DNA of 32,000 bases from Patescibacteria group bacterium (GTDB taxonomy: Bacteria > Patescibacteriota > Patescibacteriia > 2-01-FULL-39-33). This document shows, one piece after another, positions 9,775-25,800 of the stretch. The stretch lies in assembly GCA_041662745.1 (NCBI GenBank), contig JBAZRV010000004.1, positions 1 through 32,000 on the forward strand. The letters are read 5' to 3'. Both the position numbers and the translations under genes were made by a program. The notes beneath the pieces are model-generated. The model made no database searches. It was not told the DNA's origin and worked only from the letters and a program-made list of their open reading frames with translations. Positions within the stretch are counted from its first letter, which is position 1. The number at the start of each line of letters is the position of its first letter.

Positions 9775-9875
9775 CGGTGTGTTTACAAAAAAATTCGAAC
9801 CGATTTCACCCCCAAAAATTGATGAGCGGGCGGATTTCCTCCCCCAACCCCTCCATCCGCCCGCCCTTTCGGATT
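9775..9875. repeat. 101-bp inverted repeat, left copy (X)
   Basis: It is the perfect reverse complement of 11388-11488, checked base by base. It contains the 10-bp stem GCGGGCGGAT/ATCCGCCCGC (9826-9835 / 9855-9864) around a 19-nt C-rich loop, plus a TTCGAACCG motif. Confidence 0.9.
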
Positions 9876-9883
9876 TGCGATTT

Positions 9884-11020: not shown

Positions 11021-11025
11021 ATTTG

Positions 11026-11238
11026 TTATTTTATTAAATCATCAACCGTAACCCCTAACCCTTTGGCAATTTTTGCCATAGTTTCAATCGTGGGATTGGG
11101 CGTAGCCCCCGATTCAATTTTAATTATTACATTATAAGCAATATCAGCCCTTTTCGAAAGTCCATCTTGAGAAATACCTAGTTTATCTCGGCATTTTTTA
11201 ATATTCCTGGCTATTGTTGGCAATTCACTTTGTTTCAT
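11026..11238 (-). CDS. XRE-family helix-turn-helix transcriptional regulator (70 aa)
   Basis: IKKCRDKLGISQDGLSKRADIAYNVIIKIESGATPNPTIETMAKIAKGLGVTVDDL is a canonical HTH_3 sequence. TATAAT lies 6 nt upstream of the ATG, so the mRNA may be leaderless. Confidence 0.9.
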   Translation of the reverse strand: MKQSELPTIARNIKKCRDKLGISQDGLSKRADIAYNVIIKIESGATPNPTIETMAKIAKGLGVTVDDLIK

Positions 11239-11337
11239 AGTATAATTATACTAGTATAGTAGTTAAACAAGTTTTACTACTATAACTTTATCAAAATTCA
11301 TGGATTTTATCAATAATTTTTTTAAGCCCGCTTTTGG

Positions 11338-11366
11338 CCAAAATGAAGTTCGAGCCGATATTTTTT
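11338..11366. repeat. 29-bp inverted copy (B) of recombinase 3' coding sequence
   Basis: CCAAAATGAAGTTCGAGCCGATATTTTTT is the perfect reverse complement of 12969-12997. Confidence 0.85.
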
Positions 11367-11387
11367 CCAGGTTCTTTGGCGGTTTTC

Positions 11388-11488
11388 AATCCGAAAGGGC
11401 GGGCGGATGGAGGGGTTGGGGGAGGAAATCCGCCCGCTCATCAATTTTTGGGGGTGAAATCGGTTCGAATTTTTTTGTAAACACACCG
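11388..11488. repeat. 101-bp inverted repeat, right copy (X')
   Basis: It is the perfect reverse complement of 9775-9875. Confidence 0.9.
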
Positions 11489-11572
11489 CCAATCGGTATT
11501 TGCCCAATTTTCGGGCAGAAGTTTCAGAATTCGCCAACCAGTTTTGGCCTGAAATTCAAATTTTTTGGCTTC
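11486..11572. repeat. 87-bp inverted copy (A) of recombinase 3' end plus the tRNA-Ser 3' terminus
   Basis: It is the perfect reverse complement of 12997-13083, checked base by base. It begins with CCGCCA, the 3' end of tRNA-Ser(GCT). Confidence 0.9.
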
Positions 11573-11634
11573 TGATTCTTAAAGAATTGCCAAAAGCGGG
11601 CTTTAAAAAAATTATTAGTTTTAATCTTAAATAT

Positions 11635-13137
11635 ATGAAGTACTTTATTTACGCTCGCAAGTCCACTGACAGCGAAGAACGGCAGATCTTAAGCATTGAA
11701 TCCCAGATTGCTGAGTTGTATGAATTTGCCGCCAAAGAAAAACTGGAAATCGCCGCTTCGCTGTGCGAAGCGAAAACCGCCAAAGAACCTGGCCGAACTG
11801 TGTTCGGAGAAATGCTGGATCGGATTTGCGCCGGCGAAGCCGGAGGAATTTTGGCTTGGCACCCGGATCGGCTGGCTAGAAATTCAATTGACGGAGGCAA
11901 AATCATTTATCTTTTGGACACAGGCCAGATCAAAGACCTAAAGTTTCCCACATTTTGGTTTGACAGCACACCGCAAGGAAAATTCATGATGAACATTGCC
12001 TTTGGCCAAAGCAAGTATTACATCGACAATTTAAGCGAGAATATACGGCGAGGCCATCGGGCTAAACTAAGAAAAGGGATTTGGCCAGTCTTTGCCCCGC
12101 TTGGCTATCTAAATAATCACAGGACCAAAGGCATAGAATTAGACAGGGAAAGGGCGCCTTTGGTCAAAAAATGCTTTGAGCTATACGCTACGGGCGAATA
12201 TACCCTCAAAGCCCTAAGAGATGTAATCAGCCAAGCGGGGCTAAGAAGCTACCGAGGCAATGTTCTGGCCGTGGCCTGTGTCCAAAGAATGCTCAAGAAC
12301 TCGATCTACTATGGCCTATTCAAATTTAACGACGAATTGCATGAGGGAACGCACGAGCCGATTATTTCCAAGAAACTTTTTGATGAAGCTCAACAAGTAA
12401 TGAGTAATCGAGGCAAGAAGAAACGAAAGCGAAAACACGAATTTGCTTTTTCTGGATTAATGAAATGTGGGGTCTGCGATTGCCTCATAACGGCGGAAAA
12501 ACAAAAAGGCCATAATTACTATCGTTGCACCAAGAAAAAACAAACCTGCGACGAAAAATGTCTGCGCGAAGAATTACTTGTTGAACAGATGAAAGAGATA
12601 ATTCAAAAAGTTTCTTTGCCTGACGATTGGGCAAAAAATATGCTCGCCGAGATTGAGTTGGAACGAGAACAAGCAAGAAAAGACGGCATGATTTTTGGGC
12701 AAAAACTGGAAGTGAGAAAAACAGAAATCGAGCAAACCATGGAACGACTGCTTGATTTGTTTATTGAAGGCAAGCATATCGAGCCAGAGGAATATCACGC
12801 TAAAAAACAAAAACTTCTCATCGAGAAGTGTGAGCTTAATCAACAAATCAAGGATTTTGCCCAAAAAGGAAATAATTGGCTCGAACCCATGAAAGAAATG
12901 ATTTTAGCCAGCAGCCAAGCCAAAATTCTATTGTCGCGAGGCGACAATTCGCAAATCCGAGCATTTCTAAAAAATATCGGCTCGAACTTCATTTTGGAAG
13001 CCAAAAAATTTGAATTTCAGGCCAAAACTGGTTGGCGAATTCTGAAACTTCTGCCCGAAAATTGGGCAAATACCGATTGGCGGAGAGAGAGGGATTCGAA
13101 CCCTCGGTACGCCCATAATAGACGTACAACGGTTTAG
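11635..13137 (+). CDS. large serine recombinase (integrase/invertase type), ~500 aa
   Basis: The N-terminus MKYFIYARKSTDSEERQ carries the catalytic Ser motif, followed by HPDRLARN. A recombinase domain is followed by a Cys-rich zinc ribbon (CGVCDC...YYRCTKKKQTC) and a coiled-coil region. The ORF track start at 11500 is a non-ATG extension through repeat A. The last ~20 codons read antisense through the tRNA (ERDSNPR). Confidence 0.9.
   Translation: MKYFIYARKSTDSEERQILSIESQIAELYEFAAKEKLEIAASLCEAKTAKEPGRTVFGEMLDRICAGEAGGILAWHPDRLARNSIDGGKIIYLLDTGQIKDLKFPTFWFDSTPQGKFMMNIAFGQSKYYIDNLSENIRRGHRAKLRKGIWPVFAPLGYLNNHRTKGIELDRERAPLVKKCFELYATGEYTLKALRDVISQAGLRSYRGNVLAVACVQRMLKNSIYYGLFKFNDELHEGTHEPIISKKLFDEAQQVMSNRGKKKRKRKHEFAFSGLMKCGVCDCLITAEKQKGHNYYRCTKKKQTCDEKCLREELLVEQMKEIIQKVSLPDDWAKNMLAEIELEREQARKDGMIFGQKLEVRKTEIEQTMERLLDLFIEGKHIEPEEYHAKKQKLLIEKCELNQQIKDFAQKGNNWLEPMKEMILASSQAKILLSRGDNSQIRAFLKNIGSNFILEAKKFEFQAKTGWRILKLLPENWANTDWRRERDSNPRYAHNRRTTV
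12969..13083. repeat. B'-A' segment: native contiguous copy of repeats B and A
   Basis: 12969-12997 pairs with 11338-11366, and 12997-13083 pairs with 11486-11572. The segment lies inside the recombinase 3' coding region and overlaps the tRNA by 6 nt. Confidence 0.9.
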
Positions 13138-13172
13138 CAAACCGCCGCCTTCAGCCACTCGGCCATCTCTCC
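13078..13172 (-). tRNA. tRNA-Ser (anticodon GCT), CCA encoded
   Basis: The reverse complement reads GGAGAGATGGCCGAGTGGCTGAAGGCGGCGGTTTGCTAAACCGTTGTACGTCTATTATGGGCGTACCGAGGGTTCGAATCCCTCTCTCTCCGCCA. It has acceptor GGAGAGA/TCTCTCC, anticodon loop TTGCTAA, a long variable arm, and T-arm GAGGG-TTCGAAT-CCCTC. Confidence 0.9.
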
Positions 13173-13190
13173 AAACAACACGACTTGCTT

Positions 13191-13220
13191 ATTCTATCAT
13201 AAAACCATACTTATTGTAAA
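13191..13220 (-). promoter_or_regulatory. candidate promoter for tRNA-Ser(GCT): TTTACA-18-TAGAAT
   Basis: rc(13215-13220)=TTTACA and rc(13191-13196)=TAGAAT. The -10 lies ~19 nt upstream of the tRNA 5' end. Confidence 0.4.
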
Positions 13221-13231
13221 GCCCTCCCGAA

Positions 13232-13891
13232 CTACGCAGCTAAGACAAAACCGCTAATTTCAGCAAATCCTGCGGTTTTTAATGTGTCGGCGCATTCACG
13301 TAAGGTTGAGCCGGTAGTCAAAACATCATCAACTAAGATTATCCTTTTACCCCAGTTATCGCTTAAACAATCCAAATTGACTTGAAATGCCCCAATTACA
13401 TTCTGCTCCCTGTTTTCTTGCGTCTGGCCGACTTGCGGCTTATGATAAACGACTCGCCGAAGCAAATCCGGACAAACCAATAAAGAAGAATTGGTAGCGG
13501 CTAAAGCCCTGGCGATTACTTCCGCCTGATTGAACCCCCGCCAGAGATACCGACGGCGATGCAAAGGCACCGGGACCAAAACGGCCGGAAGATCATCTGT
13601 TTGTACTGATATTTTTTCTTTCTTTATTAACTGATGAACAGTGCGGGACAAGTCAAAGGCAAAATTATATTTTAAAGCGGCAATAATCCTGTCAATAAGC
13701 GGCTGTTCATAATCAAATAAAGCCTTAACCTTGATAAAATTAGCGCCAACAGGCAGAATCAATTGCCTTTCCCTGCTTGGCAATGTTGCTAAGCATTTTT
13801 CACACAGCCACTCACCTTCCTGATGGCAATTCAAACAATAACGCGGGAACAGCAAGTCAACGATTTGCTCTTTAAAACCGCTTATTGCCAT
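13232..13891 (-). CDS. comF: ComF-family protein (phosphoribosyltransferase domain, ComFC-like)
   Basis: The N-terminal zinc-finger-like region has CLNCHQEGEWLCEKC. The C-terminal PRTase motif is ILVDDVLTTGSTLRECADTLKTAG. The start overlaps the upstream gene by 10 nt. Confidence 0.9.
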   Translation of the reverse strand: MAISGFKEQIVDLLFPRYCLNCHQEGEWLCEKCLATLPSRERQLILPVGANFIKVKALFDYEQPLIDRIIAALKYNFAFDLSRTVHQLIKKEKISVQTDDLPAVLVPVPLHRRRYLWRGFNQAEVIARALAATNSSLLVCPDLLRRVVYHKPQVGQTQENREQNVIGAFQVNLDCLSDNWGKRIILVDDVLTTGSTLRECADTLKTAGFAEISGFVLAA

Positions 13892-14451
13892 TTAGCTTGG
13901 TTTACCAACCATTCCGTGCCCGATTTGATGAAATTAAGCTGTAAATTACGATAATAAACATTAGGCGTAATGCCATCGCCGCTGGTCTGTGAAACTTGAG
14001 TTTTCACTACTACCGTCGCCGAGTCTGTTTTGACGCTTTGCAAATCGGCAGAAAGCGCCTTAACCGAGTAACCGGAAAAACCGGCAGCGCCGATAACCGG
14101 AGATTGAGCTAAAGACGCCTTATACATTGTCGGGGTCATTAACGATTCCAAATCCTTGATATTCTTTTGCGGTTCATCAGTGGAATAACTGCCATAACGT
14201 TCGGCAAAAGACATGGCTAACTGCTTTAGTCCGATAGGATATTGGTTTTCCTGCTCCAATCGCTCCGGTGGCGTAGCCGGCAGACCGAAGGCGGCGGCGT
14301 TACCGCTCGTTTCTACCTGCGGCGTAGATCCGGGCTGTTGATTTACCGGCGTTTTTTGCGGTCTGAAGACTAACCACAAAACTATAATTAATGCTACCGC
14401 TATGGCAACAGCCAAAATAATTAACACTACTCGTCGTCGATCTTCAAACAT
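13882..14451 (-). CDS. bitopic membrane protein (189 aa), possible VirB8/TcpC-like T4SS subunit
   Basis: It has a single N-terminal TM helix (VVLIILAVAIAVALIIVLWLVF) and a ~150-aa beta-rich C-terminal domain ending YYRNLQLNFIKSGTEWLVNQAKWQ, which has an NTF2-like feel. The function is inferred from context only. Confidence 0.6.
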   Translation of the reverse strand: MFEDRRRVVLIILAVAIAVALIIVLWLVFRPQKTPVNQQPGSTPQVETSGNAAAFGLPATPPERLEQENQYPIGLKQLAMSFAERYGSYSTDEPQKNIKDLESLMTPTMYKASLAQSPVIGAAGFSGYSVKALSADLQSVKTDSATVVVKTQVSQTSGDGITPNVYYRNLQLNFIKSGTEWLVNQAKWQ

Positions 14452-14495
14452 ATGGAAAATTAGATTATTTTATCTATAATAATAATTGAATATCG

Positions 14496-16400
14496 CTAAT
14501 TGTTCTGCGATAGCATTGCCTCAGCAAATTCCTTCTTGGCCGCTTCAATTTCCAACAACTGCCGCGGATCGGAAGTAATCAACTGATCTTCAGAATATGA
14601 GGCCACCACTTTAACGGCCACGTGTTTGGCGCCGGCAAAGAAAATACCTTCGCCCACCGCGCTTTCCAACAACAAATATTTTTCTCCTTCAGTCAATAAA
14701 AAGGTCTTTTGCACCAAATCAATGGCCGCCGGAGACTGCTTAAGCAATAATTGAAGGGCGGAATTATTGACAATGGCCTGGCCATAAGGAGAGGTCAAAA
14801 AATCATTAACATCCTGAGTGATGGTCGTAACGCCCAAATAATATTTGCGGCAACGTTTGACCAGAGCAAAAATGAATTTGGCTGAATCTTCGCGCTGCAT
14901 CAGCCACCAAGCTTCATCTACCACTAAAATCCTCTTTTTCATTTCGGAACGGACAATATTCCAAATATAATTGACAATAGTATAGATTGCCAGCGGCTTA
15001 AGCTCATCTTCCAAATCACGGACGGAAAAAACCACCAGCTGATTATTTAATTGGACGTTTGTCGGATGATTAAGCAGGCCGGAAAAAGTGCCTTCAGTAT
15101 ATTTTTTAAGGCGCAAAACAATACTGCTGCCGCCCTCCATACCTTCCAAAATATCCTGAAAATCCTGCATGATAGGCGGTTCCACCGAACGCAAATCAGC
15201 ATCGGGAGTGATGTCTTTCTTGGCATAAGTTTCCAACAATGCGCGATCAATAATGGAATCCTCCTCCGGCGTAACATCGCCGATCATTAATCGCACTAAC
15301 CCCTTAACGGTAATAACGGCATTGCGGATAATATCTGCCGGTTTGGCGTCTTCACCGATAGCCCGAGGCAAGTCAAAGGGATTGATTTTGCCCTCAGAAT
15401 TAAGCGAAATATCGATGTAAGTGCCGCCAACGGCTTCACACAGGTGATTATACTCCCGTTCCGGATCAATAATGATCACATCGGTTCCAAACATCATGCT
15501 GCGCAAAACTTCCAATTTGATCGTATATGACTTGCCGGCGCCGGAAGTGGCAAACACCACGGAATTGGCATTCTGCAAGGAGAAACGATCAAACAGGATT
15601 AAACTGTTATTGTGGCGGTTAATGCCATACAAGATGCCGTGATCGGAAGTCAAATCCGAGGATACGAACGGAAAAGAAGACGCGGCCGGCGAAGAGTTTA
15701 GATTGATATAGACTTGAAGTTCATCATACGCCATGGGCAAGGTAGAATTAAATCCTTGCTCAGCCTGATAAAACACTCGGCGAGAAAAAATCAGAGTGCC
15801 GCCGAAAAAGTTCTCAATGCGTTCCGAAGTTTTGTCCAATTCCTCCAATGTCTTGGCATATAAAGTCACATACAAAGAAAATTGAAAAAAATGCTCAATA
15901 CCTTGAGTCAGATCATCGCGCAATTTCTCCATATCGCGCAAAGCGGTTTCAGACAAAGGATCGCGGGGCGCTCCCTTTTCCGCCGCGCCGATAATCGTCG
16001 CTTCCAACACGCCGACTTTTTTCTTTAATTGCTTCAAAATGACCGCGGCTTTAACCGGAAAAAAATACATGGCCATGTCCGCCTCAATATCCATATTGAT
16101 AATCGGCGCAAACCAGCCGACGGCGATATAGCGAGGATATTCAAAAACAAAAATCGTCCGAATATAAAGCTCGCCCAACCTGATATGATCGGAATTAACC
16201 TCCAAGGCGGCCGGAGCAATCAAATCCCGGACAGAAACGACGCCGCGCCGATAAATTCTCTCCTCCTCCAACACTTCGCGCGCCGTTTGCAACTCCTTAA
16301 CTTCCGCTTGTTTCTTCTGCTGTTGCGTTGGCGGCGGCGGCGGAGCATAACCGACTGAAGCCGGGGTTGTTTGCTTATTGATATCTTCTGGAGTAAACAT
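14496..16400 (-). CDS. virB4: VirB4/TrsE/TraC-type type IV secretion ATPase (634 aa)
   Basis: Walker A is VFATSGAGKSYT and Walker B is ILVVDEAWWLM. The N-terminal region (ELYIRTIFVFEYPRYIAVGWFAPIINMD) is typical of the VirB4 family. Confidence 0.85.
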   Translation of the reverse strand: MFTPEDINKQTTPASVGYAPPPPPTQQQKKQAEVKELQTAREVLEEERIYRRGVVSVRDLIAPAALEVNSDHIRLGELYIRTIFVFEYPRYIAVGWFAPIINMDIEADMAMYFFPVKAAVILKQLKKKVGVLEATIIGAAEKGAPRDPLSETALRDMEKLRDDLTQGIEHFFQFSLYVTLYAKTLEELDKTSERIENFFGGTLIFSRRVFYQAEQGFNSTLPMAYDELQVYINLNSSPAASSFPFVSSDLTSDHGILYGINRHNNSLILFDRFSLQNANSVVFATSGAGKSYTIKLEVLRSMMFGTDVIIIDPEREYNHLCEAVGGTYIDISLNSEGKINPFDLPRAIGEDAKPADIIRNAVITVKGLVRLMIGDVTPEEDSIIDRALLETYAKKDITPDADLRSVEPPIMQDFQDILEGMEGGSSIVLRLKKYTEGTFSGLLNHPTNVQLNNQLVVFSVRDLEDELKPLAIYTIVNYIWNIVRSEMKKRILVVDEAWWLMQREDSAKFIFALVKRCRKYYLGVTTITQDVNDFLTSPYGQAIVNNSALQLLLKQSPAAIDLVQKTFLLTEGEKYLLLESAVGEGIFFAGAKHVAVKVVASYSEDQLITSDPRQLLEIEAAKKEFAEAMLSQNN

Positions 16401-16404
16401 AAAG

Positions 16405-17088
16405 TTAAACGAAATCCTCGGTTCTTAATTTGTTAACATCGACCAATTTCTCACTGCGGGAAACCGTCGGATTATAAGTATTATAAAAAACCTCAATTAA
16501 CGACTGGGTGTCTAAAACTTGGGCTCGCAAACCGATACTGGCCAAACCCGTTAAAACTTTATCCACGATAGTCAACAGTTCCCGCTGTCTTTGCATGAAT
16601 TGTTTCTGTCCCAAAGATAGGATCTTGGTCGGCGACAGAACATCACCGCCCCTTTGCCAGAAGCTCCTGGTTTTTGAACGGAAGGGTTCATAAGGAACTA
16701 CGACCAAAAAACGCTTTGTCATAATATTTCCCAATTCTACCAATTCGGTGACATATTGCCGATACTCGGCCATTTGCATCTTTAATAAGTCATTGGTCTG
16801 TTTGACCTCGGCGTCTTTCAAAAATTCCAAATACGATTCCAAATCCAATTGCCGTGACTGGATAATGATCTGCAATGGCATATCCAAAGAATTCAAGAAA
16901 CTGACATAACCGGAAATAATGGCGTTCTGTTCATCCTCGGACTTAAGCGCGAAATTAATTGAAGACACCAAAATCACCGATCGCAAAGTGCCGTTTTTCA
17001 TAACAATGGTATCATCCCTGATCTCCGCTATCTGTAAATATTTCTGAGTTGAGGGAGTGGCTTTTGTGGCTTGCCGATTTTTAGCCAT
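16405..17088 (-). CDS. hypothetical protein resembling the N-terminal (pre-ATPase) module of Gram-positive VirB4/TrsE proteins (227 aa)
   Basis: From the ATG at 17088 it reads MAKNRQ...LQIAEIRDDTIVMKNGTLRSVILVSSINFALKSEDEQNAIISGYVSFLNSL. The longest ORF (to 17187) would overlap the upstream gene by 53 nt. Confidence 0.6.
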   Translation of the reverse strand: MAKNRQATKATPSTQKYLQIAEIRDDTIVMKNGTLRSVILVSSINFALKSEDEQNAIISGYVSFLNSLDMPLQIIIQSRQLDLESYLEFLKDAEVKQTNDLLKMQMAEYRQYVTELVELGNIMTKRFLVVVPYEPFRSKTRSFWQRGGDVLSPTKILSLGQKQFMQRQRELLTIVDKVLTGLASIGLRAQVLDTQSLIEVFYNTYNPTVSRSEKLVDVNKLRTEDFV

Positions 17089-17134
17089 AAGATAAAATCT
17101 TCTATTTATGGTCCATCGGTTGACGGACTTATTC

Positions 17135-17584
17135 TTAACTTTGATTATTGATCCCATTCTCCCCTTGGTACACGCCTCCGGTATCAATGACCAAGGCGAT
17201 TTCTGACAAGCGGGACTTGCTGACGGGTTGACGCGCCGCCATTCTAACTGCCGGCTTTTCTTCTTTAGGCTTGGCCAAATCAGCCCTTATTTCATCTAAG
17301 GTAAAAAATTTACGCCAAACCTTGAGTTTAGGATTCTTTAAAGTTTGAAAAAAGTTAAGCAAAAATAAATGAAAGGGTTGGCCGTTTATCTTGGCAAAAG
17401 CGATAATCAGGGTTAGAGCCAAAACCGCCAAGCCGGAAACGGCGAATAAAGAAAAATCAAATATCCTATAAAAAATCACGATGATCAATCCGCCGACAAT
17501 AAGTTCAATGAACTGACGGACGGAAACCGGTCCGATAATCTTATCTTCAACATCCAAAAATTGTGGCACTACCACCTGTTGCAT
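17135..17584 (-). CDS. PrgI-family (VirB3-like) small membrane protein (149 aa)
   Basis: The N-terminus is VPQFLDVEDKIIGPVSVRQFIELIVGG, followed by two hydrophobic helices. This is the characteristic PrgI-family signature, and it sits upstream of VirB4. Confidence 0.6.
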   Translation of the reverse strand: MQQVVVPQFLDVEDKIIGPVSVRQFIELIVGGLIIVIFYRIFDFSLFAVSGLAVLALTLIIAFAKINGQPFHLFLLNFFQTLKNPKLKVWRKFFTLDEIRADLAKPKEEKPAVRMAARQPVSKSRLSEIALVIDTGGVYQGENGINNQS

Positions 17585-17586
17585 AA

Positions 17587-18999
17587 TTAGTAGCGTAAAT
17601 TGCGATTAAGTTCCATAACGGCATGGAATTCGTCAAGCGACAAGGTCGGCTTGCCGGCGGTTAAGCGTTCTTTGATTACCATTTCTATATCTTTGCCCTC
17701 AGCCATGGCCGCTTGCCCCAACAAACGATAAAACTTACTGACTTCATTTTTGTGCCAAGCCGCTATGCCCTCAATTTTCTTGCCAAAATATTCTTTCTCC
17801 AACAAGTCAATTTTTTCTTTAAGCTTGGCTGTTACGACCTTCGGATCGGGAGACAGGCGTCGAAAATCAATCAAGGTCATATTCTCCAACTCCTCAATCG
17901 GTCCCATTAGTTTTTTATTGAACTTTACATCGTCCAAATTCGGTCGGCTGGTCGGTCGTGGCAGAGCCAAATTGCCAGCCAAAGTTTCTTTCGTTGCAAA
18001 CGGCTGAGGTTGCGGCAAAGGCAAATCCTTAACTACCTTAAGTTTAACATCTTGCGCGCTTGGGGGCAATTGTGTTTCTTTTTTTATCGTCTTAGACAGA
18101 GGCGTTAAACCGATTTTTTTCTCTAAAATTTCAGAATCATCGCGCGGTTTGACCATCAAATCATCAGGTATCCGGATTACCGGCAAACCGTCTTCCATTT
18201 CTATGGTCAGGGCGGAACTGTTAGCTTGCGGCTTAGCGGTAACCGTCATGACCGCTTCGTTTTCCCCGTCTTCCGTCAAATCATCCGGTGATTCTCCGGA
18301 GGCGGGCGCGGGACTAACCGGCCCTGCTGGTCCGGCGGCAACCGCTTTAATGATCTTTAACATCCGATCAGCATCGGCTTCCGAAAAATCCATTCCCCCG
18401 ACTTTGCGGCTCTTCATCAAGTTCTCCTTGGTTTCCATTTCGTCTCGAACATCTTTTAGCCGAGCGATAATAATTGAGCCCAAACGCTTAACCATTACCT
18501 CGTCAGCGGCCGGGTAACCGAATGACAAAACAATAGAAGTGGCGGCTTCAGTATAATCAATAGTCCTCGGCGACGCCTTGACTGCTTGAGTGTATTTTTT
18601 AATTTCCTCTTCATCCTCGCGGGAAAAAGTTATAACGGTGGAATTCTTTGGTTTATTTAACGCTTCAGGCTGAAACTTTCTATCAACATCCATTAAAGAA
18701 GGAGCGACTGGGGCCTTCCCGGCCGGCCGGCCGTAATATCCGACTTCATTCACTACCTCCCTAACGCCGTTAGCTACCTGATGCGCCAAAAAATCATTAA
18801 AACCGTAATCGATTTTTAGTTTGTCCGCCAGGACATCGGTCGTCACTTCGCCCAAAAAAATACTGACCACTAAAGACGTGGATTTAATGCCGAATTTTTC
18901 ATCCAAAGCATCCAGCTTATCCAATATCTCGTCCGTGGATAACTTATCCTTGACTGTCGGCGGCAATGATTTAAGTTTATTTAAATATTCTTGAGGCAT
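17587..18999 (-). CDS. hypothetical protein (470 aa) with central Pro-rich linker
   Basis: It lies 2 nt from the downstream gene. It has a low-complexity AAGPAGPVSPAPASGESPDD segment and a conserved-looking C-terminus (DFRRLSPDP...AWHKNEVSKFYRLLGQ...LSLDEFHAVMELNRNLRY). Confidence 0.7.
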   Translation of the reverse strand: MPQEYLNKLKSLPPTVKDKLSTDEILDKLDALDEKFGIKSTSLVVSIFLGEVTTDVLADKLKIDYGFNDFLAHQVANGVREVVNEVGYYGRPAGKAPVAPSLMDVDRKFQPEALNKPKNSTVITFSREDEEEIKKYTQAVKASPRTIDYTEAATSIVLSFGYPAADEVMVKRLGSIIIARLKDVRDEMETKENLMKSRKVGGMDFSEADADRMLKIIKAVAAGPAGPVSPAPASGESPDDLTEDGENEAVMTVTAKPQANSSALTIEMEDGLPVIRIPDDLMVKPRDDSEILEKKIGLTPLSKTIKKETQLPPSAQDVKLKVVKDLPLPQPQPFATKETLAGNLALPRPTSRPNLDDVKFNKKLMGPIEELENMTLIDFRRLSPDPKVVTAKLKEKIDLLEKEYFGKKIEGIAAWHKNEVSKFYRLLGQAAMAEGKDIEMVIKERLTAGKPTLSLDEFHAVMELNRNLRY

Positions 19000-19006
19000 A
19001 ATAATT

Positions 19007-19531
19007 TTAATTTCCTGCTAACTGTTGGCTCTTTAGGTATTCGTCCAACTCCTGCCGGCTAACGCCCAATTCTTCCAACAGCAGACGGCGCTCCAAGCCG
19101 GAAATAGTTGACCAATCATACCTGCTTAACATATCGCTCCGACTATTAACCGATTCAACCGGAGCAGGTATAACCGATACTGCCGAATCATTCTCAATTT
19201 CTCTGGAAGTGTCATTATCCGCAGTTAAAAAATCCTTGGATTGCAACCCCTCAATAAAGGCGTCAATATCGCCAAGATCATCCTGAAAATCCCTAAAACG
19301 ATTTTTGGCTATTTCCAAAGCCAAACGCCGCTTAGTGCCATTACTTTGGATAACTGCCTTTTGTAATGCCAACCAAAATTCATTCAAATCAATATCACCC
19401 CAAATAACTTGGCCGATTAAATCCATAACCGCATAAATCTCAGAATCAGATAACTGAAAAGAGCCAAGCCAAGGATTTAACTGCTTTAACTCGTTAATTG
19501 TGCCCAGTTCATTTACCTGTTGGGTAACCAT
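19007..19531 (-). CDS. hypothetical protein (174 aa)
   Basis: It is tightly packed in the operon, with 3-nt and 7-nt gaps to its neighbours. I recognise no motif. Confidence 0.65.
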   Translation of the reverse strand: MVTQQVNELGTINELKQLNPWLGSFQLSDSEIYAVMDLIGQVIWGDIDLNEFWLALQKAVIQSNGTKRRLALEIAKNRFRDFQDDLGDIDAFIEGLQSKDFLTADNDTSREIENDSAVSVIPAPVESVNSRSDMLSRYDWSTISGLERRLLLEELGVSRQELDEYLKSQQLAGN

Positions 19532-19534
19532 ATT

Positions 19535-22500
19535 TTATATTTCCTCCTCAAAATTTCCACCCTTTTTACCGCCTTTAATCGCCCGGGCCTTTTTGTCCCA
19601 ATCGGTCGGCTTAAATTTCGGACGGTCTTCGTTAATATCCACAAAATAATTCTCATTCTGCTTCAAAAAATCTTCAATCGCATCATTTATTTTCTTTCTT
19701 TCTCCTACCCTACCGCTAACCTGATCGCCTCTCAATTCCAGCTGTCTCTGCATCAACGTATTAATTTCATTTTGCGATGTTGGATCTCTTTTTGCTCGCA
19801 GACTTGCCAAATTTTTCTCTATTTGCTCATCTTCGGATCTTAATTTTTTAGCTTGATCAATCAAATCCTTATATCCGATTTTCACCGGATCATTCTCCGC
19901 TTCGTCAAGAATCCTTTGTTTAACTCCTTTTATCAACTCATTATTATTGCCTCTTGCGCCAATTACCCGCAAAGTATTAACATCCATGCCGCGCGCCACC
20001 GCTTTCTGATCAACGTCTGACAAACTGCCCCACTTGATTTTTTCCGCGTCTTCTGCCTTAAGCGATCCGATAACATTTGATTTATTTTCCGCATTAACTC
20101 GGTCAGAAATACCCTCAAAAGAACCCTTGGACAACACATATTTTTTTATCATTTCCTCGGCATCCCTCAGATTCTTTGATGCTTGGTCAACAGCCTGCTG
20201 AGCGGCGCCCCTATTCTCCTCAGTGGCATCATTTAATCCTTTTCTAGCATCCGCCAATTCAGAGTTCAATCGGCTAAAATCATAAGGATCAACGCTGCTG
20301 CCATTGCCAATAATCGCTTCTTTAAGAGCATTATCAATTTTATCTTTATGCTCCTTACTGCGATCACCGAATTTTTCCTGCAGCTCCTTGGGCGAAGCCA
20401 GATCGCCAAAATCACGCATAAAGTCTGCTGTCATGCCATCAACATGCATATTCTCCAAAACCTTATTGCGATTTTCGCTGAAATATTTACGAGCCTTTTC
20501 TTTTTGTTCCGGATCGCTGCGATCATAGGCTTTGGCCACGTCATATTTCGTTGATAAATATTCTTTACGCGAATCTTCATCATAAATAACCTTACCGCTG
20601 GCATCAGTAATATTATTGCCCTGCGCATCTTTTTTAGCAAAAGACATATGAGAAACTCCAGACCAAATATCCTTCTTGATCTCTGAAGACATGGCCTTGT
20701 CTAATTTAGATAAATCACCGGCACCATGCTTCATTAAGAACTTAGCCAACGTATCGTCAAATCCTCCGGCACTATCTTTTTTACCGCCTAATGCTTCATT
20801 AAGATTAGTTAAGGTGGCTGAATCCATACTGCCCATGATCTTGTTTAAGTCAATCTTATCGGTCTTAAGATCCGACTCCAGTTTTTCAAGATTAATCTTG
20901 CCCTCCTTGGCGTACATGGTATTCATGGCCAAATTGGGATTATATTTTCTCAGATTATCATCAAATTCCTTACCTAATTCTGTTCCGGTCAAAGCGGTGC
21001 GCGCCTGATTAATCAAATCAATATTATTACGCTTTTTACTTTCATCAATTTCATCATCCCTAATTAGACCCTTCTTCATCAAGGTTTGAGTAGCGGCAAT
21101 TTTTTCATATTTAGTACCGCCGGAAGCCAAATTACGCAATTGATTCTCATTCTTCTTATCAATCTTAGCTCCTCCCGCCACCGCCCTGATGCTTTCATTA
21201 AATCTTTTGGTCGTACCCGCTTCCAGAGACGCCATTTTGCCGCCTAAAGCTTCGCGCGCAAAGGGTATATTCTTGCCACCGGCTTGATAAAGTCCAGAAT
21301 ATAACCTTTGTCTAACGCCTAATCTATCGTCAACGGCCGTGCCGATTGCTCCCGGAGCTTTTTTAGCTGCGGTTTTAGCCAAATTAAGGCCGCTGAAACG
21401 TTTGCCCTGCTTAGTCAAAAATTTCATGCCCGCACCGGCCCAGGAACTGCCGGCCGTGCCGAGTTTTTGACCGATAATGAGAGAGCCGACGAGCAAACCG
21501 ATCAGCAAACCGAAGTTAATTATTTTTTCTACCGTACCCATTTTTGACAAGGCAAGAACAGTGGACTCATTACTGGCGCTACTGGCGCTTAGTCCGGCGG
21601 CCGCAGTCCCTTCTTGTTGTAATGCCGCACTGCCGCCGACGCCGGTAGTCTGTAAATCATAAGAAATCGTATCATCAAAACGCCCGTCATTCCCAAGGTC
21701 TTTAAGCGTAGTCAAAGAGACATAAATAAAAAACATCATAGCCGGGCCAACGATCAAATATTTTACCAAATCGCCAAGAACCTGGCCGGTATATTTGCTA
21801 GCGGCCGGAAAGGCCAAGCCAAAAAAATATAAAGGCGATAAGACCACCAAAAACAGCATATAAACTATGCGGTACATCAAAACGGCGGTAATGCAAAAGA
21901 TTACGACCAAAGCGACAAAAGTAAAAATAGTCGCAAACAGCATAGCCGCAACCAAGTTCCAAGTGCTGAACCCGGTGTCAGTCAGCTGGTCAGCTACGCC
22001 GTTCAAAGACATTAAATCAGGCAAACCTAAAGCGTTTAAAATCACGTTATAGCCGGTGCTTTGCGCCAGTGGCGCGGCAAAAGTCAACATCAGAATCTGC
22101 GAGGCGTCAATCATTAAGCCGAAAAACATCTTAGAAAAGTTTATCAGTATCGCCGCCACCAGAATCTTAGGCATCATAGTGCGGAAATCATAATTTTTCT
22201 GATGTAAAATCGTACCGACCGCCGAGACTAAAAGCAAAATAATGAAAAAATTATTACAAACATCCCTGATAACGGTCCAACCGATAGTAACCACTTTGTG
22301 ATTGGTAAAATTATTGAAAGTGGCAACAGCCAGCATGGCTTTAGTAACCAAAATCAAAATCCAACCCAAGCCGTAAGTCAAACCATAAAGTATCCAAGTC
22401 AACATGCGGGCGATGACGTCAGAAAGAGTGGATTGAGCCTCTGTCCTTCTCCCTGCAGTTGCTTGCGTTACAGATTCGCCAGATTCAGGATTAACTAAAT

Positions 22501-22777
22501 TACCATTCTCATCGGCGGGCATAGCCGTATCTTCGCCTTTCCCGGCAGGATTTACTAAATAATATTCGGGCGGATTACCAAACTGCCAGACTTGATATTC
22601 TATGTTTTCACTGTCAGTCAGTCGTATTCTTTTATCTGTTAATTGTCCTCCACTTGTTATATAACTATTAGTATATGCATAAGAATAATTAGCAGAAATG
22701 CCTAAAACTCCGCCACCTACTAAGGCGGCTAACAATAAAGTTACAATTATTCTTTTGTACTTTTGATAAAACATCAC
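19535..22777 (-). CDS. VirB6/TrbL-like polytopic membrane protein with ~600-aa charged C-terminal extension (1080 aa)
   Basis: An N-terminal signal/TM segment is followed by at least six hydrophobic helices in aa ~130-470 (for example LVAAMLFATIFTFVALVVIFCITAVLMYRIVYMLFLVVLSPLYFFGLAF). A K/D/E-rich region follows that looks largely helical. Confidence 0.55.
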   Translation of the reverse strand: MMFYQKYKRIIVTLLLAALVGGGVLGISANYSYAYTNSYITSGGQLTDKRIRLTDSENIEYQVWQFGNPPEYYLVNPAGKGEDTAMPADENGNLVNPESGESVTQATAGRRTEAQSTLSDVIARMLTWILYGLTYGLGWILILVTKAMLAVATFNNFTNHKVVTIGWTVIRDVCNNFFIILLLVSAVGTILHQKNYDFRTMMPKILVAAILINFSKMFFGLMIDASQILMLTFAAPLAQSTGYNVILNALGLPDLMSLNGVADQLTDTGFSTWNLVAAMLFATIFTFVALVVIFCITAVLMYRIVYMLFLVVLSPLYFFGLAFPAASKYTGQVLGDLVKYLIVGPAMMFFIYVSLTTLKDLGNDGRFDDTISYDLQTTGVGGSAALQQEGTAAAGLSASSASNESTVLALSKMGTVEKIINFGLLIGLLVGSLIIGQKLGTAGSSWAGAGMKFLTKQGKRFSGLNLAKTAAKKAPGAIGTAVDDRLGVRQRLYSGLYQAGGKNIPFAREALGGKMASLEAGTTKRFNESIRAVAGGAKIDKKNENQLRNLASGGTKYEKIAATQTLMKKGLIRDDEIDESKKRNNIDLINQARTALTGTELGKEFDDNLRKYNPNLAMNTMYAKEGKINLEKLESDLKTDKIDLNKIMGSMDSATLTNLNEALGGKKDSAGGFDDTLAKFLMKHGAGDLSKLDKAMSSEIKKDIWSGVSHMSFAKKDAQGNNITDASGKVIYDEDSRKEYLSTKYDVAKAYDRSDPEQKEKARKYFSENRNKVLENMHVDGMTADFMRDFGDLASPKELQEKFGDRSKEHKDKIDNALKEAIIGNGSSVDPYDFSRLNSELADARKGLNDATEENRGAAQQAVDQASKNLRDAEEMIKKYVLSKGSFEGISDRVNAENKSNVIGSLKAEDAEKIKWGSLSDVDQKAVARGMDVNTLRVIGARGNNNELIKGVKQRILDEAENDPVKIGYKDLIDQAKKLRSEDEQIEKNLASLRAKRDPTSQNEINTLMQRQLELRGDQVSGRVGERKKINDAIEDFLKQNENYFVDINEDRPKFKPTDWDKKARAIKGGKKGGNFEEEI

Positions 22778-22804
22778 AAAAATCTAATGAATAAAATGGA
22801 TAAG

Positions 22805-25800
22805 TTAGTATCCGCAGTTGCCATAACGGTTGCAGAGACGAAAATTCAAGGACGGCGAAACATTCACCTGGGCCGCCTTATAAGGACGGGACGCATCTTC
22901 TTCGGTATTCAAGAAAGTCGGCGACTGGTCTTCTCCTCCCGCATACAGGGTCACATCGTACAAGCTCGCCTCAATCGGACTGCCGGCTTGCGCTGAATTG
23001 GTTACCACTCTTAAAACCACTCGATCGCCGATTCCCACTTTATCAGCCGGACCATCACAACTTTGATTCTGACAAACCTTAAAATAAACATCGCCGTCCG
23101 CGCCACAGGCATCCAAATAAGCCTTCCAATCGCTCGGATCAGCGCCAAATAATTGTTGCAACCAAGTCGGCTGTGTCTTATAAATATTCAACTTGATCGG
23201 ACTAACCACGGGAATTGACGCGGCATCAGCCGGTTTGACCGCTGATGTTGCCGGACAACTATTTGAACCGGAACCGTAAGAATCCTTAAAACACGGCACT
23301 AAGCGGAAAATGTCGCCGTAACGCAATTGCTTATCACTCTCGGCGTCATTAGGCGCATAAACCAAATCAAGAAAATACTCAATGCTACTGCTAACGGCAT
23401 AGCCGGCAAAAGTGCTGGCATCAGCATTAAAATTAAAATTGCCCTTGCTTTCGCCCCGCTCATCATTGTATTCCCCTTCTTCTCCGGTTCCGGGAGCTCC
23501 GCCGCAACCGCCACCCACCGTGTTTATCGCCATAAACGCCTTCCAGTCATAACTGTCATGGGCCAGCGTAATCAGACTGCCTTGGCCCAAAGGACAATCA
23601 ATATCATCATCCAATGACTTGGTTTCCGGACAAACGCCATCAGCGTAATCAATGGGAGCAACATCGGCCACGACATTGCCACAATCATCCGGACTGTAAT
23701 TATCAGTATTGGGATCAATGGCTTGTTCGCCGATATCGCAATAACCGTCGCCTATCTCTCGACAGCGGCGCCAACCGCCGGTATAAGTGGCGCAACATGT
23801 TTTCTGAGTGGAATCAGTGGGGTCAATATTAAGATTGACCTCGTTTTCCGGCAACCAATAACAAGTGGCCGAGCAACAGGGGTTGCCACTGGAGCATTGT
23901 TGGCCCAAAGCCGAGCTGTAACTGGCCGGTTTGCATTCGGCCAAAGCATCCTGCTGTTCCGCATCATAAGTATCCCGCCTTAAGACAATCAAATCCTTAA
24001 TCGTTATGGAATTAACCGAAGCCCAATTATCCCGTACCGTTAATTTAATCGGCACGTGGAAAGCAGCGGGATTGGAAGTTGATCTTACCGGTTCTTGGCA
24101 AGCGCCTTTGGTCAAGTCGTCATTGTATTCTTCAACTGTTTCCGTGGTGCCATCGCCCAAAGGCAAGATGCCGACTTTTGTCTCGCATTCCCGTAAATTC
24201 TTATTGGCTAAGCTGTCATAGTTATAAAAATGATACAGATTAAAAGCGTTAGAGGAAGTGGGGCGGCTAGCCAGAGACAAGCCGGCGTAAGATGATACGT
24301 TGCCATCGCCCCAATCAATATCATAAGAACGAATAGGCACCTGATCCGGATCAATCTTGGAATTAAAGCTTACTTTAACCGCGCCGATACTGTTAACAAT
24401 AGTGGGGTTGACCTGGGCTAAAGTGAATTCCGGCCTAACCAAGCAGAATGACAAATAAGTATTGGCGGGACGGGAGTTATTGGGACAATACAACGTCGGC
24501 AAACTCCAAACCGAGTTATTAGAGCTGATGGCGCCGGAAATATCAGTATAATGCCCTATCAAGGGATCGCTGGATTTATCCGCCTGCCATTGCCATAAAC
24601 TGTAAGAACGCCCGAATAATTGCAACAAGTCCGGCTTGCTGACGGAGAAATTGTCAACATAGTATAGGGAATTATCTGATTTCTGACCGGCGCGCGCTTG
24701 GTAGGGTGGCGCACTGCCGCCGGGGAATTCATAAAAAATCGGTTGATTACCGCCGGAGTCGGGACGAGTATCCCATTCATTGGGGTATTGGCCGTTTTCC
24801 GGCGCCACCGTAGAGCCGAAAGGTTTGTAATCGGTAGCGTAATTGTAGCCGACGGCCGCATAAATGCGGCGATAAATCAGCTTTTTATCCCTCAAAATGC
24901 CGATTGCTCCGAAATTCCTATCATTGACGCAAAAATATTTATAATTAATCCGACAATCATTTATGGCAATAGAGGGGGTATCTTTGGCAAAACTATGAAC
25001 TTGAAAATAATTATTATCCGCTGATTCTCCGATGGGACGAGAGTTATAAGCAATCTCGCAGTTCAGGGCATTAGCCTGATTAAGATAAGCGGTGCGTTGT
25101 CTTCCCTCCAAGGATATACCTTCAGCGCAATATAATTTGCGCGTCGGATCATCGGGATCGTTGACTCCCTGACCATTATCAATGCCAATAAAATTCTGGC
25201 ATAAATTCAAGGGATAAAAACCTAATAAAGCGCCATCAGCATCATAGAGGCGACGGCTTTCAGCCAAACAATAAGCGGAACTGTAGAAACAGCCATCAGA
25301 AAACAACTCGGCATTGCTTGGCGTAACAATGCCCACACCGGAAGGAATAGCATCTCCGGAAATTGAACTGTCTTTAACGCAATCTTTGCCCAAATAATCC
25401 AAATATTGCGAACCGGACGATAAACGACTGGCCCAAGCTTTGTTCTCATTGCCGGAATTAACCACTTGAACCAACTTGTAGCAATACTCCACCACCTGTT
25501 TGCCGGCAAAATTACCCACAACGGCTATACCGCCCATTTTATCGCCCATGCCGGCCGGCTTATTGAAATCCAAGAACTTGGCAAACCCCAGAACATCTCC
25601 GGTTACTGCGGGATTGGGGTCGGTCAGATCCTTGCCGAACTCCGAATCTTCATCAGTAATAATCCTTAAGCCGAAAGTGGAAATTCCCAAGTCTACACCG
25701 GCCGCCTGGATAAGCATGCCAGCCAAATTGCCCAAAACTCCTCCGGAAGTGTCAAACTTCTTAGCGGTATGCCAAGGCAGTTCAACATGCAAGACAATAT

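What the first reader, a model, noticed from the sequence alone, without database searches (positions are those of the whole stretch)
13232..22777. Minimal type IV secretion-like operon without coupling protein or relaxase, terminating in ComF
Eight co-directional genes are separated by 2-44 nt, apart from one start-dependent junction (17088/17135) and the 10-nt overlap at the ComF start. They encode a VirB6/TrbL-like polytopic protein, two unknown proteins, a PrgI/VirB3-like protein, a VirB4-N-domain-like protein, a VirB4 ATPase (GAGKS, VVDEAWW), a bitopic possible VirB8 analogue, and ComF. The window contains no VirD4 coupling protein, relaxase, oriT-like region or peptidoglycan hydrolase. 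The ComF start overlaps the preceding gene by 10 nt, suggesting translational coupling. In Helicobacter, a T4SS (ComB) imports DNA and works with ComEC/ComF. By analogy this cluster could be a DNA-uptake or host-contact machine rather than a conjugation system. The two unknown proteins (174 and 470 aa) would then be lineage-specific components.
Basis: partly seen in the sequence, partly recalled or inferred. Interest (0 to 1): 0.75.

Follow-up and report, generated by a model that had tools for sequence, protein, structure and literature searches.

The report
Known Patescibacteria type IV secretion operon
This is the chromosomal, relaxase-free type IV secretion gene cluster typical of ultra-small Patescibacteria (class ABY1), ending in the competence gene comF; the arrangement was described in 2025, so it is a good example of a known system rather than a new one.

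Summary
On the minus strand of 13232-22777 lie eight tightly packed genes: an extended VirB6-like protein, a 174-aa and a 470-aa protein, PrgI/VirB3, a TrsD-like VirB4 N-domain protein, VirB4, a VirB8-like protein and ComF. The 189-aa "possible VirB8" is confirmed as a PrgL-type VirB8 by profile and by fold. The operon really starts further upstream, with a roughly 3870-aa secreted, cysteine-rich giant protein.

The contig is a Buchananbacteria-like Patescibacterium. The order 470-aa/PrgI/TrsD/VirB4/VirB8 is kept in about 80 related species. ComF follows directly in 37 of 70 loci with room. RadA, RecG, DsbA and pilin/SLT genes recur nearby. No relaxase or coupling protein was found in the window or in the flanks of close relatives.

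The neighbouring mobile DNA is a separate 12.8-kb phage-like island inserted between two tRNA-Ser genes. It carries a diversity-generating retroelement cassette.

Quinonero-Coronel et al. 2025 (PMC12102498) already described this relaxase-free, monoderm-derived T4SS, including the comF/recG/radA linkage in ABY1. The DNA-uptake idea remains plausible but untested. In Saccharibacteria the T4SS is essential while comEC and comF are not. Interest is modest.

The parts
22805..32000 (-). 3' 9.2 kb of a giant gene (3872 aa in an independent gene call) encoding a secreted, cysteine-rich (3.4% Cys) protein with CBM_4_9 and delta-endotoxin-C-like lectin modules. It is the first large gene of the operon and a candidate host-contact adhesin.
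   Evidence: ORF. Length of 3872 aa and position. Pfam CBM_4_9 2.8e-7 and Endotoxin_C 5.5e-5. Signal peptide in the L083 orthologue. Cys count. A large ORF sits in the same position in relatives.
19535..22777 (-). Extended VirB6/TrbL-like polytopic membrane protein (1080 aa). It has an N-terminal TM, about 7 TM segments within residues 126-437, then a hydrophilic tail of about 640 aa.
   Evidence: Pfam TrbL E=1.2e-3 (below threshold) and NCBIfam pLS20_p028 2e-4. TrbL is the only family recurrently hit among homologues, 14 of 37, best 4.6e-5. Hydropathy.
19007..19531 (-). 174-aa soluble protein. Its N-terminal ~95 aa equal the N-terminal module of the single 484-aa p470-family protein of relative L004.
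   Evidence: No Pfam or NCBIfam hit. BLASTP 45% identity over 92 aa, E=6e-25, to L004:7405-8859. Found as a separate gene only in the closest relatives.
17587..18999 (-). 470-aa soluble, Cys-free protein of a large unannotated Patescibacteria family. It has three all-helical domains joined by disordered linkers. Function unknown; it always sits between the VirB6-like gene and PrgI.
   Evidence: No family hit. AF2 pLDDT 77. No fold match in PDB or BFVD. 2699 representatives at E<=1e-3. Present in 68 of the 81 loci scanned, including L001 and truncated contigs.
17135..17584 (-). PrgI/VirB3-like small membrane protein (144-149 aa, 2-3 TM).
   Evidence: Pfam PrgI 30.4 bits, above the gathering score of 27. 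Hydropathy. Conserved in 74 loci.
16405..17088 (-). TrsD-like protein (227 aa from the ATG at 17088), a separately encoded VirB4 N-terminal domain.
   Evidence: NCBIfam TrsD 4.3e-10; matches CD1110 VirB4 residues 2-119. Precomputed Pfam TraC-like on the 227-aa gene call. Conserved in 79 loci.
14496..16400 (-). VirB4 ATPase (634 aa) with Walker A GAGKS and Walker B VVDEAWW.
   Evidence: NCBIfam conju_CD1110 357 bits, above the 325 cutoff. Pfam P-loop_TraG 3.5e-30. Closest plasmid VirB4s are 30-36% identical and come from Firmicutes and Actinobacteria.
13882..14451 (-). VirB8-like (PrgL-type) bitopic protein (189 aa): N-terminal TM, disordered linker, C-terminal NTF2-like domain.
   Evidence: Profile search against PDB sequences: best hit PrgL 7AED, E=0.009. 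AF2 model pLDDT 79.6. Foldseek top hits are PrgL 7aed (5.9e-5), TcpC 3ub1, OrfG and Rickettsia VirB8. Present in 80 loci.
13232..13891 (-). ComF/ComFC-family protein (219 aa) with an N-terminal CxxC...CxxC zinc ribbon and a PRTase-like domain. Its start overlaps the VirB8-like stop by 10 nt.
   Evidence: TIGR00201 6.5e-28, residues 21-218. Pribosyltran and DZR_2. Junction read. Adjacency seen in 37 of 70 relatives. Overlap or a gap of <=30 nt in 26 of the 42 hits scored.
13078..13172 (-). tRNA-Ser(GCT). It marks the downstream end of the operon and the right edge of the inserted island.
   Evidence: ARAGORN and Rfam. Homology with relative L002 ends at 13081.

Best explanation
The locus is the core chromosomal type IV secretion system of a Buchananbacteria-like Patescibacterium (GTDB class ABY1). 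It belongs to the phylum-specific T4SS lineage derived from monoderm (MPF-FATA) conjugation machinery.

Shown here:
- A VirB4 ATPase with a separately encoded TrsD-like N-domain, a PrgI/VirB3 membrane anchor, an extended VirB6-like polytopic protein and a PrgL-type VirB8. Together these make up the cytoplasmic-membrane translocon.
- A co-oriented gene, 27 nt upstream, for a roughly 3870-aa secreted, disulfide-rich, lectin-module protein.
- Two soluble helical proteins of unknown role.
- The locus is not on a mobile element. It sits between housekeeping genes in the same order in about 80 species.

Inferred:
- The machine is not used for conjugation, because no relaxase or coupling protein is nearby.
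- It acts at the contact with a host cell. The giant protein and the pilin/SLT proteins encoded nearby in relatives would provide adhesion and wall penetration. VirB4/TrsD would power assembly and transfer of macromolecules through the PrgI-VirB6-VirB8 channel.
- comF, whose start overlaps the VirB8-like stop (suggesting translational coupling), and the persistently linked radA and recG suggest that nucleic acid is among the cargoes, or that the genes are co-regulated with DNA processing. Neither the direction of transport nor the substrate is established.

My estimates: identity as this known T4SS type, about 0.9. Non-conjugative, host-interaction role, about 0.6. Nucleic-acid import coupled to ComF, about 0.25.
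For: - Family and fold assignments.
- Source organism: VirB4 is 100% identical to a protein named 'Patescibacteria group bacterium'; the nearest named relatives are Buchananbacteria and Falkowbacteria.
- Synteny: the order 470-aa/PrgI/TrsD/VirB4/VirB8 holds in 80 genome loci with 70-98% VirB4 identity.
- Chromosomal context: pth, der, femAB, MFS and ksgA lie upstream; tRNAs, recG and radA lie downstream.
- No relaxase or T4CP in the window or among the large ORFs tested in relatives.
- ComF follows directly in 37 of 70 loci, with start overlaps of 10-23 nt in the window's clade.
- 36 of 38 loci with at least 8 kb downstream carry at least one of comF, radA or recG, across three different gene orders.
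- Pilin-domain and SLT proteins and DsbA recur in the neighbourhood.
- Literature: PMC12102498 describes exactly this T4SS lineage, TrsD as its most frequent component, VirB8 homologues almost only in ABY1, and comF/recG/radA in ABY1 loci. PMC10633639 shows the Saccharibacteria T4SS is essential for epibiotic growth.
Against: - No functional data exist for any ABY1 member.
- The VirB6 call rests on sub-threshold matches.
- Pilin and hydrolase genes are not in the window itself.
- comF is adjacent in only about half of the related loci. In the others a DsbA-like or pilin-associated gene takes its place, so comF is not a fixed part of the module.
- In Southlakia, comEC, comF and dprA are dispensable while the T4SS is essential (PMC10633639). 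That argues against DNA uptake as the core role of the phylum's T4SS.
- A T4CP encoded far from virB4 cannot be excluded, since only about +/-10 kb could be examined. PMC12102498 reports that distant VirD4 homologues are common.
Confidence: 0.75

Rival explanations
1. One reading: a DNA-uptake machine. The T4SS would capture or import host or environmental DNA, as H. pylori ComB does. It would hand single strands to ComF, with RadA and RecG processing them, for nucleotide salvage or transformation.
For: - The comF start overlaps the VirB8-like stop, and this is conserved in the clade.
- comF, radA or recG lie within 10 kb in 36 of 38 loci, despite three different gene orders.
- The relaxase and T4CP needed for export are absent.
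- PMC12102498 notes the same co-localisation. PMC12857230 describes ComB as a VirD4-less T4SS that works with ComEC.
Against: - Linkage only; no comEC or dprA is in the window.
- comF is replaced by other genes in about half of the related loci.
- tRNA genes separate comF from recG and radA, and radA is convergent, so these are not one operon.
- In Southlakia, transformation depends on comEC, while comEC, comF and dprA are non-essential and the T4SS is essential (PMC10633639).
- None of the ComB outer-membrane core components is present.
Confidence: 0.25
2. An integrative conjugative element. The T4SS and the adjacent large serine recombinase would form a Firmicutes-like ICE (a CD1110-type VirB4 with a serine integrase) inserted at tRNA-Ser.
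For: - VirB4 is of the CD1110 family typical of Firmicutes ICEs.
- A large serine recombinase lies 100 nt beyond comF, next to a tRNA.
Against: - The nearest relative, L002, has the same T4SS, comF and both tRNA-Ser genes but no island. Homology breaks exactly at the tRNA.
- The inserted 12.8 kb carries terminase, methylase and DGR genes and no relaxase or T4CP.
- The T4SS flanks are housekeeping genes in conserved order.
- The operon is syntenic in 80 species.
Confidence: 0.03
3. A protein or effector secretion or nutrient-extraction conduit in which comF is only a passenger, kept in the operon by genome compaction and with no mechanistic link to the T4SS.
For: - comF adjacency is clade-limited (37 of 70).
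- The Southlakia T4SS is essential independently of com genes, and its authors suggest protein export (PMC10633639).
- Patescibacterial genomes are gene-dense, with many short or overlapping junctions.
Against: DNA-processing genes (comF, radA, recG) recur next to the T4SS in three different arrangements. Pure chance would not predict this, although shared ancestry of a conserved chromosomal region could produce it.
Confidence: 0.4

Closest known systems
Patescibacteria-clade T4SS, ABY1 arrangement (Quinonero-Coronel et al. 2025, PMC12102498)
   Same: - VirB4 of a monoderm-derived clade, with an adjacent TrsD-like gene.
- PrgI/VirB3, VirB6-like and PrgL-like VirB8 (the last reported almost only in ABY1).
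- No relaxase or T4CP near virB4.
- Chromosomal location, with comF, recG and radA in the neighbourhood and ksgA nearby.
   Different: Nothing essential. Details added here: the VirB8-like/comF start overlap, the giant secreted protein as the upstream operon gene, the 470-aa family and its detached 174-aa module, and three alternative downstream architectures.
Southlakia epibionticum T4SS, SEML1_0006-0019 (Wang et al. 2023, PMC10633639)
   Same: A Gram-positive-like T4SS without a recognisable coupling protein or relaxase. It is the only member of this lineage with genetics, and it is essential for epibiotic growth.
   Different: It belongs to a different class (Saccharimonadia). Its pilin array and hydrolases lie inside the cluster. 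comF is not reported in the cluster, and comEC, comF and dprA are dispensable there.
Monoderm conjugative MPF-FATA T4SS (pCF10 Prg/Pcf, pGO1 Trs, C. difficile CTn CD1110-type, pCW3 Tcp)
   Same: - VirB4 is 30-36% identical to plasmid CD1110-family ATPases.
- PrgI, TrsD and PrgL/TcpC-type VirB8 folds.
   Different: It has no relaxase, T4CP or PrgB-type adhesin, and no VirB1 in the window. It is not on a mobile element and is conserved as chromosomal core.
Helicobacter pylori ComB DNA-uptake T4SS
   Same: A VirD4-less, relaxase-less T4SS genetically associated with competence functions.
   Different: ComB is a diderm system with VirB2, VirB7, VirB9 and VirB10. Here there is no outer-membrane core. 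The link to ComF is positional only, and no uptake has been demonstrated.

Membership tests
Patescibacteria-clade T4SS (MPF-FATA-derived) | VirB4 ATPase of the monoderm (FATA/CD1110) type | tested here: met
   NCBIfam conju_CD1110 357 bits, above the 325 cutoff. The best plasmid relatives are from Firmicutes and Actinobacteria at 30-36% identity. Hundreds of Patescibacteria homologues reach 70-100% identity.
Patescibacteria-clade T4SS (MPF-FATA-derived) | Separate TrsD-like (VirB4 N-domain) gene next to virB4 | tested here: met
   NCBIfam TrsD 4.3e-10; covers CD1110 residues 2-119 while VirB4 covers 180-732. It is a separate ORF in 79 related loci.
Patescibacteria-clade T4SS (MPF-FATA-derived) | PrgI/VirB3-like membrane protein | tested here: met
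   Pfam PrgI 30.4 bits, above the gathering score of 27.
Patescibacteria-clade T4SS (MPF-FATA-derived) | VirB6/TrbL-like polytopic protein | tested here: inconclusive
   TrbL E=1.2e-3, below the gathering score. 14 of 37 homologues hit TrbL, best 4.6e-5, and it is the only recurrent family. The protein has about 8 hydrophobic segments. No structure prediction was run.
Patescibacteria-clade T4SS (MPF-FATA-derived) | VirB8-like bitopic NTF2-fold protein (PrgL type, reported mainly in ABY1) | tested here: met
   The profile's best PDB hit is PrgL, E=0.009. AF2 model pLDDT 79.6. Foldseek top hits are PrgL, TcpC, OrfG and VirB8.
Patescibacteria-clade T4SS (MPF-FATA-derived) | No relaxase or coupling protein near virB4; chromosomal, syntenic location | tested here: met
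   None in the window. None in about 8-10 kb of flanks of close relatives. Synteny shown.
Patescibacteria-clade T4SS (MPF-FATA-derived) | VirB2-like pilin genes associated with the locus | tested here: not met
   No T4SS_pilin domain in any large ORF of the window. In relatives, pilin-domain proteins, one fused to SLT, lie 5-8 kb beyond comF. That region lies outside this window.
Patescibacteria-clade T4SS (MPF-FATA-derived) | ABY1-type neighbourhood (comF, recG, radA) | tested here: met
   comF is in the window. recG and radA were seen only in relatives; here the island displaces them beyond the window edge.
Conjugative MPF-FATA T4SS (plasmid or ICE) | Relaxase and type IV coupling protein; carried on a mobile element | tested here: not met
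   No such genes found. The locus is present without the adjacent island in L002 and sits among housekeeping genes.
ComB-type DNA-uptake T4SS | VirB2, VirB7, VirB9 and VirB10 envelope-spanning core, and demonstrated DNA import | tested here: not met
   No VirB7, VirB9 or VirB10 family hits in the operon. DNA import cannot be tested with these tools.
ComF/ComFC (TIGR00201, GntX) | N-terminal four-Cys zinc ribbon plus C-terminal PRTase-like domain | tested here: met
   CLNC...CEKC at residues 19-33. DZR_2 24.2 bits and Pribosyltran 33.5 bits. TIGR00201 E=6.5e-28 over residues 21-218, but 98 bits is below the curated cutoff of 233.

The most novel reading that the evidence does not exclude
In ABY1 Patescibacteria the relaxase-less T4SS would be a contact-dependent nucleic-acid import machine, a monoderm counterpart of ComB. 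The giant lectin-like protein and pilin/SLT proteins would breach the host. VirB4/TrsD would pull in DNA (or RNA). ComF, co-translated with VirB8, would receive the strand for RadA/RecG processing. The widespread 470-aa helical protein would act as the cytoplasmic substrate adaptor in place of a coupling protein.
Probability: 0.2. Interest if true: 0.75.

Novelty: new member of a known kind. Interest (0 to 1): 0.3.

Why it matters
Patescibacteria make up a large share of bacterial diversity, and how they take macromolecules from their hosts is an open question. Their T4SS is a leading candidate and is essential in the one species tested.

This locus is a clean, complete example of the ABY1 form and gives concrete handles for experiments:
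- a translationally coupled VirB8-like/ComF pair;
- a conserved unannotated 470-aa partner family;
- a giant secreted lectin-like protein.

It does not reveal a new kind of system. The arrangement and its comF/recG/radA linkage were published in 2025.

Tried and rejected
- The ICE hypothesis (T4SS plus the neighbouring serine recombinase) was rejected. Relative L002 has the T4SS, comF and both tRNA-Ser genes without the island. The island carries phage genes and no transfer genes.
- The 470-aa protein gave no Pfam or NCBIfam hit, no PDB sequence hit, and no Foldseek hit in PDB or BFVD. Its function stays unknown.
- The 174-aa protein compared with the 470-aa family profile by hhalign was not significant. 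The relationship appeared only against the L004 orthologue.
- The promoter and terminator scan of 13000-32000 gave counts no different from shuffled sequence, so it was uninformative.
- Rfam found only the two tRNAs.
- The attempt to read the source contig beyond the left edge of the window returned only short island contigs. recG, radA and the pilin genes are therefore inferred from relatives, not seen in this genome.
- The VirB6-like profile against PDB sequences gave only coiled-coil noise from the C-terminal tail.
Full report
**Observation**

The minus strand of 13232-22777 carries eight ORFs of 1080, 174, 470, 149, 260/227, 634, 189 and 219 aa. The spacers are 3, 7, 2, 46 (with the ATG at 17088), 4 and 44 nt. 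The 189-aa stop and the ComF ATG overlap by 10 nt, read directly.

An independent public gene call on a near-identical contig gives the same genes, with 227 aa for the TrsD-like protein. That call truncates ComF to 176 aa. The TIGR00201 match (residues 21-218) and the zinc-ribbon match (residues 10-40) show that the 219-aa form is the real one.

The same gene call shows that the ORF at 22805-31996, 27 nt upstream and co-oriented, is part of a 3872-aa gene that runs off the window. The operon therefore has at least nine genes.

**Identity of the parts**

- VirB4 passes the curated NCBIfam cutoff for the CD1110 family (357 vs 325 bits) and has GAGKS and VVDEAWW.
- The preceding 227-aa protein matches TrsD (4e-10) and the first ~120 residues of CD1110-type VirB4. 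The 634-aa protein matches residues 180-732. The ATPase's N-domain is therefore separately encoded, and this split holds in 79 related loci.
- PrgI passes Pfam's threshold.
- The 189-aa protein has one TM helix, a disordered linker and an alpha+beta domain (AF2, pLDDT 79.6). The best structural neighbours are PrgL of pCF10, TcpC of pCW3, OrfG of ICESt3 and Rickettsia VirB8. A sequence profile of its family also finds PrgL first (E=0.009). It is a PrgL-type VirB8.
- The 1080-aa protein is only weakly TrbL-like (E=1.2e-3). TrbL is the only family that recurs among its homologues, in 14 of 37. It has an N-terminal TM, about seven more TM segments and a hydrophilic tail of about 640 aa. I call it an extended VirB6, with moderate confidence.
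- ComF has the CxxC...CxxC ribbon and the PRTase-like domain.

**The two unknown proteins**

The 470-aa protein is soluble and Cys-free. It is predicted as three helical domains with disordered linkers. It has no fold or family match. It belongs to a large family: 2699 representatives at 50% clustering, 1746 of them at E<=1e-30. It was detected in 68 of the 81 loci scanned, always just upstream of PrgI.

The 174-aa protein is not an independent invention. Its first ~95 residues are 45% identical to the N-terminus of the single 484-aa family member that occupies both positions in relative L004.

**Organism and conservation**

VirB4 is 100% identical to a protein from a 137-kb 'Patescibacteria group bacterium' contig. 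Named relatives are Buchananbacteria and Falkowbacteria. From my own knowledge, these fall in GTDB class ABY1. PMC11809585 shows that ABY1 genomes are labelled Falkowbacteria by NCBI.

In 80 species-level genome loci with 70-98% VirB4 identity, the block 470-aa/PrgI/TrsD/VirB4/VirB8-like is essentially invariant. A very large ORF and a VirB6-like gene precede it wherever the contig is long enough.

Downstream there are three architectures that follow the VirB4 tree:
- (A) VirB8-like > ComF > tRNAs > 166 aa > RecG > RadA < SLT-pilin < pilin < DsbA. This is the window's clade.
- (B) VirB8-like > DsbA > RadA > RecG <.
- (C) VirB8-like > ~240 aa > pilin-domain > ~420 aa > DsbA > SLT-pilin > RadA.

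ComF is the next gene in 37 of 70 loci with room. Of the 42 ComF hits scored near the VirB8-like gene, the start overlaps the VirB8-like stop by 10-23 nt in 14 and lies within 30 nt in 12 more. Of 38 loci with at least 8 kb downstream, 36 have at least one of comF, radA or recG within 10 kb, and 24 have two or more.

**Not a mobile element**

Upstream of the giant gene, close relatives (85-91% identity) encode pth, der/engA, femAB, an MFS transporter, ksgA and a small TM protein. Downstream of comF, the nearest relative L002 has tRNA-Ser(GCT), tRNA-Ser(TGA), tRNA-Arg, recG, radA and pilin/SLT genes. No relaxase or coupling protein appears there, in the window, or among the ten large unlabelled ORFs from relatives' flanks that were tested.

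In L002 the two tRNA-Ser genes are about 380 bp apart. In the window they are 12.8 kb apart, and homology breaks exactly at the tRNA ends. Window ~279-13077 is therefore a separate insertion. It carries two DNA methyltransferases, small and large terminase subunits, a DGR cassette and a large serine recombinase. This disposes of the ICE reading, and it explains why recG, radA and the pilin genes are not in the window.

**Comparison with the literature**

Quinonero-Coronel et al. 2025 (PMC12102498) surveyed 2,474 Patescibacteria virB4 genes. They found:
- a monophyletic clade related to MPF-FATA;
- TrsD as the most frequent accessory component;
- PrgI- and VirB6-like genes;
- VirB8 homologues nearly confined to ABY1;
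- almost no relaxases and few T4CPs near virB4;

Wang et al. 2023 (PMC10633639) showed that the Southlakia T4SS is essential for epibiotic growth. In that organism comEC, comF and dprA are not essential, and comEC is required for transformation. The 2025 FEMS review (PMC12857230) lists these systems as a recognised new T4SS group. The finding is therefore a correct rediscovery from raw sequence.

**Mechanism**

Shown: the component set of a monoderm inner-membrane translocon with its ATPase, a co-oriented giant secreted lectin-like protein, chromosomal conservation, and absence of conjugative DNA-processing genes nearby.

Inferred: a host-contact transfer machine, by analogy with Southlakia. 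The giant protein and the nearby pilin/SLT proteins would act as the extracellular part. DsbA would serve the disulfide-rich exported components.

The link to comF, radA and recG survives three rearrangements. This is suggestive of nucleic-acid cargo or of co-regulation. However, it could also reflect inheritance of one conserved chromosomal region. comF is replaced by other genes in half of the loci, and the Southlakia genetics argue against competence being the T4SS's core role. I give the DNA-import model about 0.2-0.25.

**Verdict**

This is a new member of a known kind, of modest interest (0.3).

Noticed in passing
window ~279-13077: A 12.8-kb phage-like island lies between tRNA-Ser(TGA) (188-277) and tRNA-Ser(GCT) (13078-13172), which are only ~380 bp apart in the nearest relative L002. 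It carries a ParB-methyltransferase and a second methyltransferase (2321-4325), small and large terminase subunits (4322-6257; PHROG E=1e-79) and a large serine recombinase (11500-13137) whose 3' end overlaps the tRNA. No capsid, portal or tail genes were recognised.
   Followed up: partly
window 6607-9662: A diversity-generating retroelement cassette. Two paralogous target genes (6607-7380 and 7684-8463) each end in a ~115-nt variable repeat (7254-7368 and 8337-8451). A template repeat sits at 8836-8950. Within the repeat, every mismatch falls at an adenine of the template copy. An Avd-like gene lies at 9015-9662 on the minus strand (PHROG E=1e-18). No reverse transcriptase was found in the window.
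   Followed up: partly
window 9775-13083; L001 13318-14946: Perfect inverted repeats flank the recombinase gene and its neighbour: 11486-11572 vs 12997-13083 (87 nt), 9775-9875 vs 11388-11488 (101 nt) and 11338-11366 vs 12969-12997. An independent assembly of the same population has the recombinase segment in the opposite orientation. This is either a real invertible segment or an assembly ambiguity, and it may explain the missing DGR reverse transcriptase.
   Followed up: partly
L004:13283-14845, L075 and L058 homologues: Large serine recombinases occur downstream of the T4SS locus in other species too, directly after comF in L004 and L075. The tRNA-Ser site next to the T4SS locus therefore looks like a recurrent integration hot spot.
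   Followed up: no
L002:17955-19166 (-) and 19189-20238 (-); L040:13153-14424; L063:13510-14556: Proteins of 350-420 aa carry a T4SS_pilin domain, one of them fused to an SLT lytic transglycosylase domain (a VirB2-VirB1 combination). They recur near the T4SS in relatives.
   Followed up: partly
window 22805-32000; L083:7523-19168: The giant 3860-3880-aa protein has a signal peptide, 3.4% cysteine, and CBM_4_9 and delta-endotoxin-C-like modules. DsbA-like thioredoxins recur in the T4SS neighbourhood of relatives, which fits a need for disulfide formation in exported components.
   Followed up: partly
window 17587-18999 and 19007-19531: The 470-aa protein belongs to a large family (2699 representatives) with no Pfam, NCBIfam, PDB or BFVD match. 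The 174-aa gene is a detached N-terminal module that is fused in relatives such as L004.
   Followed up: yes
loci L007, L009, L011, L012 and others (record titles); L039: Many contigs carrying this Patescibacteria T4SS at 70-80% VirB4 identity are titled 'uncultured Gammaproteobacteria bacterium' (TPA assemblies). One is titled 'Nanoarchaeota archaeon'. These are probably mislabelled MAG records.
   Followed up: no
window 13232-13891; L001 12639-13169: The public gene call for comF (176 aa) starts downstream of the zinc ribbon. The 219-aa ORF that overlaps the VirB8-like stop is the form supported by the TIGR00201 and DZR_2 matches.
   Followed up: yes
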